Shown one piece after another: positions 30,001-33,000 of a DNA stretch of 64,000 nucleotides. How positions within the stretch are numbered: position 1 is the first letter of the stretch; every line of letters starts with the position of its first letter. This DNA is from Escherichia coli (GTDB lineage Bacteria; Pseudomonadota; Gammaproteobacteria; Enterobacterales; Enterobacteriaceae). The position numbers are program-made. The stretch lies in assembly GCF_003018115.1 (NCBI RefSeq), contig NZ_CP027457.1; one strand, 5' to 3'.

Positions 30001-33000
30001 ATCTGTAGAGCGTGAGGGGCCGTTCTATTTCCTCTTCGCAGATAAGGACGGAGAAAAATACGGTCGCGCAAACAAACTTTCTGGTCTGGATAAGGCACTG
30101 GCTGCTGGCGCCACTGAAATCACAAAAGAAGAATATTTTGCCCGAAAAAATGGCACATACACGGGCTTACCGCAAAATGTAGATACCGCTGAAGATTCAG
30201 AACAACCAGAGCCGATAAAAGTTACCGCTGAAGAAGTAAACAAAATTATGCAGGCAGCCAATATCAGCCAGCCTGACGCTGATAAGTTGCTTGCTGCATC
30301 ACGTGGTGAATTTGTTGAAGGGATTAGTGACCCGAATGATCCGAAATGGGTTAAGGGGATCCAGACCCGCGATTCTGTGAACCAGAACCAGCATGAATCG
30401 GAACGGAACTACCAAAAAGCGGAACAAAACAGCCCAAATGCGTTACAAAACGAGCCAGAAACGAAACAGCCTGAACCAGTGGCGCAACAGGAAGTGGAAA
30501 AAGTCTGCACCGCCTGCGGTCAGACCGGCGGCGGCAACTGCCCTGATTGTGGTGCGGTGATGGGCGACGCAACATACCAGGAAACATTCGATGAAGAGTA
30601 TCAGGTTGAAGTTCAGGAAGATGATCCGGAGGAAATGGAAGGCGCTGAACATCCACACAAGGAGAACACTGGCGGCAATCAGCATCACGATAGCGATAAT
30701 GAAACTGGCGAGACGGCAGATCACTCAATTAAGGTGAACGGTCATCAAGAAATCACATCCACCAGCAGGACGTGTGACCATCTAATGATCGACCTTGAAA
30801 CCATGGGAAAAAATCCTGATGCCCCGATCATCTCAATAGGTGCAATATTTTTCGATCCGCAAACCGGAGATATGGGACCGGAATTTAGTAAGACTATCGA
30901 TCTGGAAACTGCTGGCGGGGTCATTGATCGGGACACCATTAAATGGTGGCTTAAGCAATCACGCGAAGCGCAATCTGCCATTATGACCGATGAAATCCCG
31001 TTAGATGATGCACTGTTACAATTGCGGGAATTTATCGACGAAAACTCCGGTGAATTTTTTGTTCAGGTCTGGGGAAATGGAGCCAACTTCGACAACACGA
31101 TTTTGCGCCGTTCATACGAACGGCAGGGGATCCCCTGCCCGTGGCGTTACTACAACGATCGCGATGTACGCACAATCGTTGAGCTGGGGAAAGCCATAGA
31201 CTTCGATGCCAGAACGGCTATTCCATTCGAAGGTGAGCGCCATAATGCACTTGATGACGCCCGTTACCAGGCAAAATACGTTTCAGTTATCTGGCAAAAA
31301 CTGATCCCGAGTCAGGCTGATTTTTAATGTTCAACCGTCGCCAGTTGTCGTTGATATTCTGCAACTGGCGCGTTCCGGAGTGATAGCCATGAGCGAACAG
31401 TACCTGATAACGCTCGACGAGTGGAAACCAAAACGGTTCAGTCTCCCAATAACAAACACTACCCTGGTGAAATACGGAAAACTAGGATACATCGTTCCAA
31501 GACCACAAAAAATTCGTGGGCGTTGGCTGATAGATCGCCGAGCAGTATTTGTTGGGCCTGGTGAAACGGGAATTGCGCCGGAAATTCATACTGGCGATGA
31601 TGATGCACTGAAGGAGATTTTAACTCATGTCACCGAGGCCACGAAAAAACAGCACTGACGTAGCCGGTCTTTACGAAAAGTTTGATCGCAGAACTGGCAG
31701 AGTTTACTACCAGTATAAAAATCCTGTGACTGGAAAATTTCACGGACTCGGAACAGACAAAGGTAAGGCAGAAAAAATCGCTTCCACAGCCAATCAGCGA
31801 ATAGCTGCAGCAGAAGCTGAATATTTCATGCGCAAAATTGATGAAAGTCCGTCAGCAACAAAACGTCGGGGTATCAGATTAAAGGCATGGGTTGATCGAT
31901 ATCTGAAAATACAGGACACGCGACTGAAAAATGGAGACATTGCAGCTACAACCCACAAAGAAAAAGTGCGAATGGCTGCATACCTGGTTTCCCGCCTGGG
32001 AAACCACCCATTGAAAGAACTGGAGGTAAGAGACTTTGCATTAATACTGGACGAGTGGATGGATAAAGACATGGTCAGCACAGCAAGAGTAAATCGCGGA
32101 TTATGGGTTGATATTTATAAAGAAGCACAGCATGCGGGAGAAGTTCCTCCTGGATGGAATCCTCCGGAGGCTACCCGTAAACCGATCCCTAAAGTGACCA
32201 GATCCAGACTCACCCTGGAAGACTGGCAAAAAATTTATAATGCAACGCCAGAAAAACACTTTATCCGTAACGCAATGCTTCTTGCGATTGTTACTGGTCA
32301 GCGCCGTGATGACATTTGCCACATGCGTTTTTCAGATGTATGGAATGGACATCTACATATAACCCAAGGAAAAACCGGAATGCGTCTGGCCTTACCTCTT
32401 ACGCTACGATGCGATGAAATTGGGGTATCGTTAAAAGAAGTTATTGATGGATGCAGGGACAGAATGTTGAGTCCATACCTAATCCATAGTAGGCACCAGA
32501 AACAACCAAAACCGATGAGTAAAGACAACCTGAGCGATTACTTCGCCAAAGCGCGAGATCTGGCTGGAATAATTCCACCAGCAGGAAAAACACCGCCAAC
32601 ATTTCATGAACAACGCTCCCTGTCAGAACGGTTGTACCGCGCACAGGGTGTCGATACAAAAACATTACTGGGACATAAAGTCCAGGCTACCACCGATCGC
32701 TATAACGATACCCGAGGTCAGGAATGGGTTAAGTTGGTTATTTAACAAACATCATATGGAATATCCGTCACCATTTCAGGAAAAAAGTGTTGTAAAATGC
32801 GTGCCCTGGTTTTGGGGAAAAGTTTTGGAGAGATTTTGGAGAAAGGAAAAAATTGAATAAATTCAAAATCCTGAAAGTGCCCCGCCTTGTGAATAAAAAG
32901 GTGGAACTCGAATGATCGGTCGACTGCTTCGCGGCGGTTTTATGACCGCTATCTACGCGTACCTGTATATCCCAATCATTATTTTGATTGTGAACTCCTT

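What the first reader, a model, noticed from the sequence alone, without database searches (positions are those of the whole stretch)
31339..31370. 9-bp inverted repeat between the exonuclease gene and xis
CGCCAGTTG...CAACTGGCG with a 14-nt spacer and no T-run. It could be a protein-binding site or an attenuator controlling xis/int expression rather than a terminator.
Basis: seen in the sequence. Interest (0 to 1): 0.2.

Follow-up and report, generated by a model that had tools for sequence, protein, structure and literature searches.

The report
Conserved RNA hairpin just upstream of xis
The inverted repeat is real and is kept as a stem-loop, most likely in the mRNA, just ahead of the excisionase gene in a family of E. 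coli lambdoid prophages; it is an ordinary, previously undescribed kind of small regulatory hairpin whose exact job is untested.

Summary
There is no T-run on either strand. It lies in the 61-nt gap between a 3'-5' exonuclease-domain gene and xis/int of a lambdoid prophage at potC. Alone it is not beyond chance. Comparison makes it real: behind the same exonuclease 3' end, at least six different xis/int modules each carry their own hairpin here. The region is only about 47% identical between haplotypes, yet all seven tested representatives fold at -17.5 to -20.3 kcal/mol. There are compensatory changes. Mismatches are G.U on the gene (sense) strand 37 times against one A.C. Pluralibacter keeps the same GCCAGTT core with a 4-nt loop instead of 14. 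This favours a sense-strand RNA stem-loop over a DNA operator. Lambda-type xis genes carry a canonical terminator hairpin at the same place; this one lacks the U-tract. The most likely role is an RNA-level barrier (protected 3' end or pause) that uncouples xis/int from upstream transcription. This is untested. A rival is an extended -10-like motif (TGnTATTCT) conserved in the loop. Low interest: a new member of a known kind.

The parts
31339..31347 (+). Left (5') arm of the stem, CGCCAGTTG
   Evidence: Position 5 (A31343) covaries with T31366: A-U becomes G-C in the Rac-like xis module.
31348..31361 (+). Loop, TCGTTGATATTCTG. U31348.G31361 can form a tenth pair. The 3' half is invariant in relatives.
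   Evidence: Fold. In alignment A2, T28 G29 and T31-G37 are invariant while columns 25-27 and 30 vary.
31362..31370 (+). Right (3') arm of the stem, CAACTGGCG
28856..31327 (+). Stop TAA at 31325-31327.
   Evidence: Public records annotate it as exonuclease or exodeoxyribonuclease VIII.
31328..31335 (+). TGTTCAAC, eight bases after the stop. They stay 99.5% identical across haplotypes; sequence diverges right after them.
31352..31360 (+). TGaTATTCT: candidate extended -10 element inside the loop (belongs to a rival explanation). Implied transcription start near 31367.
   Evidence: Read from the sequence. TGnTATTCT is invariant with n = A/G/C in A2. The consensus promoter scan reports no site here.
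31327..31383 (+). 18-codon mini-ORF (MFNRRQLSLIFCNWRVPE). Its ATG overlaps the exonuclease stop (TAATG). It spans the hairpin and ends 5 nt before the xis ATG.
   Evidence: Its length is not conserved in other modules and it is absent in Pluralibacter.
31377..31380 (+). Shine-Dalgarno GGAG of xis, 6 nt after the stem and outside it
   Evidence: The same GGAG(G)TGATAGCCATG leader occurs in Pluralibacter.
31389..31658 (+). xis (89 aa, Pfam Exc)
   Evidence: Annotated as excisionase in public genomes.
31627..32745 (+). int (372 aa, lambda-type arm-binding domain plus tyrosine recombinase). It overlaps xis by 32 nt. The prophage ends next to potC (32912).

Best explanation
The repeat encodes a stem-loop in the sense-strand RNA of the long early-left operon: CI-like repressor side, then DicF, dicB, ydfD, exonuclease, xis, int. 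It lies in the exonuclease 3' UTR, which is also the xis leader. The stem ends 6 nt before the xis Shine-Dalgarno, which it does not sequester. Shown here: the structure, not the sequence, is what relatives keep, and the pattern of tolerated mismatches fits RNA of the gene strand. Inferred: it is the U-tract-less counterpart of the terminator hairpin that lambda-type phages carry just upstream of xis. It would act on the RNA to uncouple xis/int from upstream expression. The most likely way is as a stable 3' structure that stops 3'-5' exonucleases. Transcripts that end or are cut downstream would then mature to a stable exonuclease mRNA lacking xis/int, while full read-through transcripts made after induction still deliver Xis and Int. 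A contribution from RNA polymerase pausing is possible. The confidence given is for the whole statement; that it is a selected sense-strand RNA structure I hold at about 0.75, the exonuclease-barrier mechanism at about 0.35-0.4.
For: 1. At least six xis/int module types behind the same exonuclease 3' end each carry their own hairpin subtype at this position.
2. The last 75 nt of the exonuclease gene are 94% identical between haplotypes and the 11 nt at and after the stop 99.5%. The hairpin region is only 47% identical. Even so, the seven representative variants tested (six module types, one with two stem variants) fold to -17.5 to -20.3 kcal/mol, z -2.9 to -4.8.
3. Family A (this hairpin): 98.7% of cells paired, with A-U to G-C covariation at 31343/31366 and one G.U recombinant.
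4. Family B: 96.3% paired, 4 pairs changed on both sides, and 0 of 500 shuffles reach the covariation score or the percentage paired.
5. Strand test: 37 cells in 7 columns are G.U on the + strand against 1 A.C. Plus-strand dG stays between -14.8 and -21.9, while minus-strand dG falls to -7 or -8 in several variants.
6. In Pluralibacter gergoviae (exonuclease 65% identical in protein) the same GCCAGTT/AACTGGC core forms an 11-bp stem with a 4-nt loop before xis. Serratia sp. DD3, K-12 Rac xisR and ST64B also have a hairpin before xis.
7. Lambda, HK022, Salmonella SI8 and Tbat2_3 have a terminator-like hairpin with differing stems 30-60 nt upstream of xis on the sense strand. The lambda one was predicted as 't5' in PMC4195576, Table 4.
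Against: There is no experimental or transcript-end evidence, so the mechanism is inferred. The hairpin alone is not rarer than chance. Most relatives are E. coli prophages and are not independent. By column, the G.U against A.C bias is 7 to 1 in family B, or 9 to 2 with family A, a one-sided binomial of about 0.03 (arithmetic). The GGC-repeat stem of family B also pairs 80% when slid by +3. The 3' half of the loop is more conserved than a simple exonuclease barrier needs. The K-12 Rac, ST64B and Serratia hairpins are single, short examples, and ST64B's z is only -1.0.
Confidence: 0.5

Rival explanations
1. It is a transcription barrier in the strict sense. The hairpin would pause or terminate RNA polymerase that is not antitermination-modified. 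It would be a weakened version of the lambda pre-xis terminator, possibly working with Rho or NusA, so that only induced, antiterminated early-left transcription reaches xis/int.
For: A canonical stem plus T-run sits at the equivalent place in lambda, HK022, SI8 and Tbat2_3 (PMC4195576 Table 4). The hairpin is on the sense strand and directly upstream of xis in every module.
Against: None of the six-plus module types, nor Pluralibacter, has a U-run after the stem. The terminator scan is negative. By established knowledge, E. coli intrinsic termination needs the U-tract. Nothing here tests Rho.
Confidence: 0.2
2. It is a double-stranded DNA element. The loop would carry an extended -10 promoter (TGaTATTCT, 31352-31360; start near 31367) for xis-int. 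The two arms, at about -28 to -20 and -5 to +4, would form a palindromic operator for a module-specific repressor.
For: TGnTATTCT is invariant in family A while n takes A, G and C. Family B keeps TATAGT or TATATT in the same register (T32 A33 A35 invariant). Pluralibacter has TATCTT and K-12 Rac TAACAT at the loop/arm junction. The hairpin subtype tracks the xis type.
Against: There is no -35 element and no hit in the promoter scan. Arms in sister modules are asymmetric at the DNA level, with departures that are almost all sense-strand G.U. Arm spacing is 14 nt here and 4 nt in Pluralibacter. By established knowledge, Xis and Int arm-type sites are direct repeats, not palindromes. The ST64B loop (GTGCAG) has no -10-like hexamer. 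AT-rich loops often contain TAnnnT by chance. A constitutive xis promoter would destabilise lysogeny.
Confidence: 0.12
3. It is a neutral palindrome, or simply the joint where different xis/int modules were recombined onto the exonuclease gene, with no function of its own.
For: Homology between prophages breaks just before or just after it. One recombinant with a crossover inside the hairpin exists (L042). On its own the hairpin is not rarer than chance.
Against: Pairing is kept through compensatory and wobble changes across modules that are only about 47% identical here. It is also kept in another genus.
Confidence: 0.06
4. It is a translational coupling device. Ribosomes ending the exonuclease gene would restart at the overlapping ATG (TAATG), translate the 18-codon mini-ORF through the hairpin and stop 5 nt before the xis ATG. 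This would couple xis translation to upstream translation.
For: The mini-ORF 31327-31383 exists. TAATGTTCAAC is almost invariant.
Against: The mini-ORF is 7 codons in the Rac-like and MSSLF modules, runs out of frame into xis in the xisE type, and has no ATG in Pluralibacter (reading frames followed by eye on the sequences). The xis SD is outside the stem and free.
Confidence: 0.04

Closest known systems
Terminator-like hairpin immediately upstream of xis in lambda-type phages (predicted 't5 lambda' and 't3 24B' in PMC4195576; also HK022, Salmonella SI8, Tbat2_3)
   Same: Same strand and same place (18-60 nt before the xis start, at the end of the early-left genes). GC-rich stem whose sequence differs between phages while the structure stays.
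   Different: Those have a run of T right after the stem and pass the terminator scan. This one and all its sister hairpins do not. In lambda the CII box of pI follows directly (annotated in mEp235). No such box is found here.
Intercistronic mRNA-stabilising stem-loops, such as REP elements between malE and malF (recalled from Newbury et al. 1987, not checked here)
   Same: A stable U-tract-less stem-loop in the sense RNA between two cistrons of one operon. This is the mechanism proposed here.
   Different: It is not a REP sequence. There is no Rfam hit. Each fetched locus holds only one copy of the palindrome, at this junction; in the window the 9-mer recurs only as isolated single copies. 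The loop is longer (14 nt). A stabilising effect is untested.
Lambda sib/tI retroregulator (own knowledge)
   Same: An RNA hairpin in the int/xis region that sets Int/Xis expression after transcription, depending on which transcript carries it.
   Different: sib lies downstream of int, is a long RNase III substrate and doubles as a terminator. This stem has 10 pairs, is upstream of xis, and is too short for a typical RNase III site.
Palindromic operators of phage repressors
   Same: Perfect 9-bp dyad symmetry in this window, placed in front of a regulated gene.
   Different: The symmetry is not kept at the DNA level in sister modules. Half-site spacing is variable. No second site and no cognate protein are known.

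Membership tests
Intrinsic (Rho-independent) terminator | GC-rich stem-loop in the transcript | tested here: met
   A stem of 9-10 pairs, dG -15.9 kcal/mol.
Intrinsic (Rho-independent) terminator | U-rich tract directly after the stem | tested here: not met
   The tail is CGTTCCGGAG on the + strand and ACGGTTGAAC on the - strand. The scan finds no site. No sister module has one.
Palindromic DNA operator | Dyad symmetry kept at the DNA level among relatives | tested here: not met
   It is perfect here. In family B, however, 37 cells depart as sense-strand G.U (DNA mismatches), and minus-strand stability collapses in several variants.
Palindromic DNA operator | Fixed spacing of half-sites | tested here: not met
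   The same GCCAGTT/AACTGGC core has a 14-nt spacer here and a 4-nt spacer in Pluralibacter.
Palindromic DNA operator | A protein that binds it | not testable with these tools
   This needs EMSA or footprinting.
Leader-peptide attenuator | Conserved leader ORF plus alternative terminator/antiterminator structures | tested here: not met
   The mini-ORF exists but its length and frame are not conserved. There is a single hairpin and no U-tract.
Intercistronic mRNA-stabilising stem-loop | Stable sense-strand hairpin between cistrons, kept by selection on pairing | tested here: met
Intercistronic mRNA-stabilising stem-loop | Protects upstream mRNA from 3' exonucleases, with RNA 3' ends at the stem | not testable with these tools
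   This needs 3'-end mapping and half-life measurements.
REP/BIME repeats | REP consensus and many genomic copies | tested here: not met
   No Rfam or REP-like match. Each fetched locus holds one copy of the palindrome, at this junction. In the window the 9-mer recurs only as isolated single copies.
Sigma-70 extended -10 promoter | TGn plus a TATAAT-like hexamer | tested here: inconclusive
   TGaTATTCT matches TG plus 4 of 6, including A2 and T6. It is invariant in family A. There is no -35 and no scan hit.
Sigma-70 extended -10 promoter | A primary transcript start about 7 nt downstream | not testable with these tools
   This needs dRNA-seq or 5' RACE.
Lambda nut site (boxA/boxB) | 5-bp stem with a GNRA-like pentaloop, boxA upstream, close to pL | tested here: not met
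   The stem has 10 pairs and the loop 12-14 nt. It lies about 5 kb downstream of the repressor region.
RNase III processing site | About two helical turns of double-stranded RNA | tested here: not met
   Only 9-13 pairs in any variant.

The most novel reading that the evidence does not exclude
The hairpin could be a module-specific cis-regulatory element rather than a passive barrier. Its subtype tracks the xis/int type and the 3' half of the loop is conserved. It could therefore be read by the cognate Xis or Int, or another phage factor, on the RNA for autoregulation of excision. Alternatively, it could gate a promoter embedded in its own loop, so that read-through transcription and local initiation of xis-int are mutually exclusive.
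Probability: 0.07. Interest if true: 0.5.

Novelty: new member of a known kind. Interest (0 to 1): 0.2.

Why it matters
Xis and Int dosage decides whether a prophage stays or leaves. These prophages are extremely common: 4065 of 5426 complete E. coli genomes match this region, and O157 and Stx-phage relatives are among them. A conserved element directly in front of xis is a plausible control point for excision and a useful landmark for the boundary of the xis/int module. Still, it is a small hairpin of a familiar kind, and nothing here suggests a new mechanism.

Tried and rejected
- Rfam: nothing at gathering thresholds, and only chance-level hits at E <= 10 around the site.
- Consensus promoter/terminator scan: nothing at the site.
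- Lambda CII box TTGC-N6-TTGC for a pI-type promoter in or near xis: none with up to 1 mismatch.
- Extra copies of the half-site as evidence of a binding protein: the 9-mer is generally over-represented in the window but occurs as isolated single copies. The full palindrome occurs once per locus.
- More distant exonuclease homologues: mEp460 and mEpX2 have gaps too short for a hairpin, and ST64B has only a 6-bp one.
- The genome-contig scan gave only 8 relatives.
- K-12 prophages: DLP12 exoD/xisD and e14 ymfH/xisE do not carry this element. Rac has an unrelated hairpin before xisR.
- Literature: the Rac excision papers (PMC4632033, PMC11014345) and full-text searches gave no description of this hairpin.
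- I could not verify whether the lambda pre-xis terminator is the classical 'tL3', so I do not name it so.
- A second phage search with the MYELT-type hairpin found only phage Evi.

Full report
**1. The observation**

The window reads CGCCAGTTG (31339-31347), then TCGTTGATATTCTG, then CAACTGGCG (31362-31370). This is a perfect 9-bp inverted repeat with a 14-nt spacer. As RNA it gains a tenth U.G pair (31348.31361). It folds at -15.9 kcal/mol on the + strand and -14.5 on the - strand. It persists in a 301-nt context with pair probabilities of 0.81-0.96. Neither strand has a T-run after the stem, and the consensus scan reports no terminator or promoter there.

The upstream 823-aa ORF (28856-31327) carries an Rv2179c-like 3'-5' exoribonuclease domain. 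xis starts at ATG 31389 (SD GGAG 31377-31380) and matches Pfam Exc. int (31627-32745) is lambda-type. potC follows at 32912, so this is the integrase end of a lambdoid prophage. DicF (28148-28199), dicB and ydfD homologues and a CI-like repressor (26191-26832) lie upstream on the same strand. The hairpin is therefore inside the long early-left operon.

**2. Is it more than chance?**

Alone, no. Perfect 9-bp repeats with 3-20 nt spacers give 22 register hits (about 15 places) in the window against 4.7 +/- 2.7 in shuffles. Simple hairpins of -13 kcal/mol or better in 26000-32900 number 5 against 4-10 in shuffles. This one is the only one of the five that lies between genes. Its arm 9-mer is a generally common E. 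coli word.

**3. Relatives**

BLAST against phages and 5426 complete E. coli genomes shows this junction in 4065 genomes. Homology breaks just before the hairpin (query position 237) or just after it (position 272). I collected 201 copies of the junction (38 distinct 60-nt hairpin regions) from IMG/VR, GenBank phages and genomes that share the exonuclease 3' end.

After the invariant TAATGTTCAAC, every one has a hairpin. They fall into two sequence families.
- Family A (this one) occurs as CGCCAGTTG/CAACTGGCG before the potC-type xis (MSEQYLITLD...).
- Family A also occurs as CGCCGGTTG/CAACCGGCG, with a different loop 5' half, before a Rac-like xis (MSEVIMIVSP...).
- Family B (for example GGTCGTTGCCCAC cagctata GTGGCGGCGACC, or GATCGCCGCTAAC cgcatata GTTAGCGGCGGTT) occurs before four further xis types.

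The subtype tracks the xis type. One recombinant, L042, has its crossover inside the hairpin. Between haplotypes, the last 75 nt of the exonuclease gene are 94% identical and the stop plus 8 nt 99.5%. The next 46 nt are only 47% identical. Even so, seven representative variants (six module types, one with two stem variants) fold at -17.5 to -20.3 kcal/mol with z of -2.9 to -4.8.

**4. Covariation and the strand**

| Measure | Family A (15 distinct sequences) | Family B (22 distinct sequences) |
|---|---|---|
| Cells paired | 98.7% | 96.3% |
| Compensatory change | A-U to G-C at 31343/31366 in four sequences; G.U in the recombinant | four pairs changed on both sides |
| Shuffles reaching the covariation score or percentage paired | 5 of 500 | 0 of 500 |
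| Source | | |

The departures from Watson-Crick pairing in family B are 37 cells in 7 columns of G.U on the + strand against one A.C. On the right arm, G-to-A changes occur only opposite a U. Plus-strand stability stays between -14.8 and -21.9 kcal/mol, while minus-strand stability drops to -7 or -8 in several variants.

By independent columns the bias is modest: 7 to 1, or 9 to 2 with family A, a one-sided binomial of about 0.03 (my arithmetic). It points consistently to pairing in the sense-strand RNA, not to a double-stranded palindrome.

**5. Other genera and other xis contexts**

- In Pluralibacter gergoviae (exonuclease domain 65% identical) the gap before xis holds CCAGCCAGTTA tctt TAACTGGCTGG. 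This has the same GCCAGTT/AACTGGC core but 11 pairs and a 4-nt loop. It is followed by the same GGAGGTGATAGCCATG leader as the window. A change of 10 nt in arm spacing is easy for an RNA loop and hard for a dimeric DNA-binding protein.
- Serratia sp. DD3 has a different hairpin there.
- K-12 Rac has GGGCGTCAAT...ATTGGCGCCT before xisR, although the upstream gene is rcbA. ST64B has a 6-bp hairpin.
- Lambda, HK022, Salmonella SI8 and Tbat2_3, whose Xis is lambda-type, have a terminator-like hairpin with a T-run 30-60 nt upstream of xis. The stems differ and the T-run is common to all.
- The lambda and phi24B hairpins were predicted as terminators t5 and t3 in PMC4195576, Table 4.

A sense-strand hairpin just ahead of xis therefore recurs in lambdoid phages. 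The family studied here is the version without the U-tract.

**6. What it most likely does**

Two things are shown: selection keeps a sense-strand stem-loop at the exonuclease/xis junction, and it is not a canonical terminator. The rest is inferred. The stem does not cover the xis SD, so direct translational masking is unlikely. With 9-13 pairs it is too short for a usual RNase III site.

The best-fitting known mechanism is a U-tract-less intercistronic stem-loop that blocks 3'-5' exonucleases. Such a structure marks the mature 3' end of transcripts that stop or are cut further downstream. Basal or non-antiterminated transcription would then yield exonuclease mRNA without xis/int, while induced read-through still delivers Xis and Int. 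A polymerase pause or weak, factor-dependent termination is the nearest rival, and the lambda analogy favours it. The missing U-tract in all variants counts against it.

**7. The loop**

The 3' half of the loop is more conserved than the 5' half. Family A has an invariant TGnTATTCT with n = A, G or C. This reads as an extended -10 element (31352-31360), which would start transcription near 31367, upstream of the xis SD. Family B keeps TATAGT or TATATT in the same register. Pluralibacter has TATCTT and Rac TAACAT.

This keeps alive a promoter-plus-operator reading. Against it: there is no -35 and no scan hit, ST64B lacks the motif, and AT-rich loops often contain TAnnnT. It needs a 5'-end mapping experiment.

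An 18-codon mini-ORF (31327-31383) starts at the TAATG overlap with the exonuclease stop and ends 5 nt before the xis ATG. Its length is not conserved in other modules, so coupling through it is unlikely.

**8. Comparison with known systems, and novelty**

There is no Rfam family, and I found no description in the searched literature. It fails the defining U-tract of intrinsic terminators. It fails the DNA symmetry and fixed spacing of operators, the paired structures of attenuators, and the consensus and copy number of REP elements. It meets what can be tested for an intercistronic mRNA stem-loop.

I class it as a new member of a known kind. It is of modest interest as a likely control point for Xis/Int dosage and as a landmark of the xis/int module boundary in a very common group of E. 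coli prophages.

**9. Caveats**

- Most sequences are E. coli prophages and share ancestry.
- The alignments are short.
- The GGC-repeat stem of family B also pairs 80% when slid by three columns.
- No transcript data were available.

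Noticed in passing
window 31352-31360: TGaTATTCT in the hairpin loop looks like an extended -10 promoter element. TGnTATTCT is invariant in relatives with n = A, G or C. 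The sister hairpin family keeps TATAGT or TATATT at the same place.
   Followed up: partly
window 31327-31383: An 18-codon mini-ORF (MFNRRQLSLIFCNWRVPE) starts at TAATG, overlapping the exonuclease stop. It covers the hairpin and ends 5 nt before the xis ATG. Its length is not conserved in other xis modules.
   Followed up: partly
window 31328-31335: The eight bases after the exonuclease stop (TGTTCAAC) are almost invariant (99.5% with the stop) across all haplotypes, although sequence diverges sharply right after them. The reason is unknown.
   Followed up: no
L222 1410-1429 (-), L223 253-268, L225 251-269, L226 214-228: Lambda, HK022, Salmonella SI8 and Tbat2_3 all have a terminator-like hairpin plus T-run just upstream of xis. 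The stems differ but the T-run and leader are shared. In lambda/mEp235 the CII box of pI follows directly.
   Followed up: partly
L216 3108-3127 (Pluralibacter gergoviae): A second hairpin, GGCTATC ggaggt GATAGCC, presents the xis Shine-Dalgarno in its loop right after the first hairpin. It is not conserved in the window.
   Followed up: no
window 28148-28199 (+): A DicF sRNA gene (Rfam 62 bits) followed by dicB- and ydfD-like ORFs. The exonuclease-xis-int genes are the distal part of a dicBF-type operon.
   Followed up: partly
window 15427-15641 (-), 17050-17298 (-), 50736-50804 (-): Rfam hits: STnc100 sRNA (160 bits), three tRNA genes in a cluster, and naRNA4 (60.8 bits, just above threshold).
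   Followed up: no
window 31263-31276 and 31286-31299: A 14-nt direct repeat, GTTACCAGGCAAAA / GTTATCTGGCAAAA, 23 nt apart inside the exonuclease 3' end.
   Followed up: no
L210 (E. coli O157:H7 PV15-279, 4893-7646): The identical exonuclease 3' end, hairpin, xis and int at potC is there a truncated prophage remnant, joined to tail genes and nleL.
   Followed up: no
L213 (contig SFGN01000167.1): A contig labelled 'MAG: Lachnospiraceae bacterium' carries an E. coli-type exonuclease-hairpin-xis junction (86% protein identity). This is probably a binning error.
   Followed up: no
L217 about 3125-3150 (Xenorhabdus lircayensis): Downstream of the exonuclease homologue, a hairpin CGCCAGAA tct TTCTGGCG shares the outer CGCCAG/CTGGCG of the window stem. 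The next gene there is not xis.
   Followed up: no
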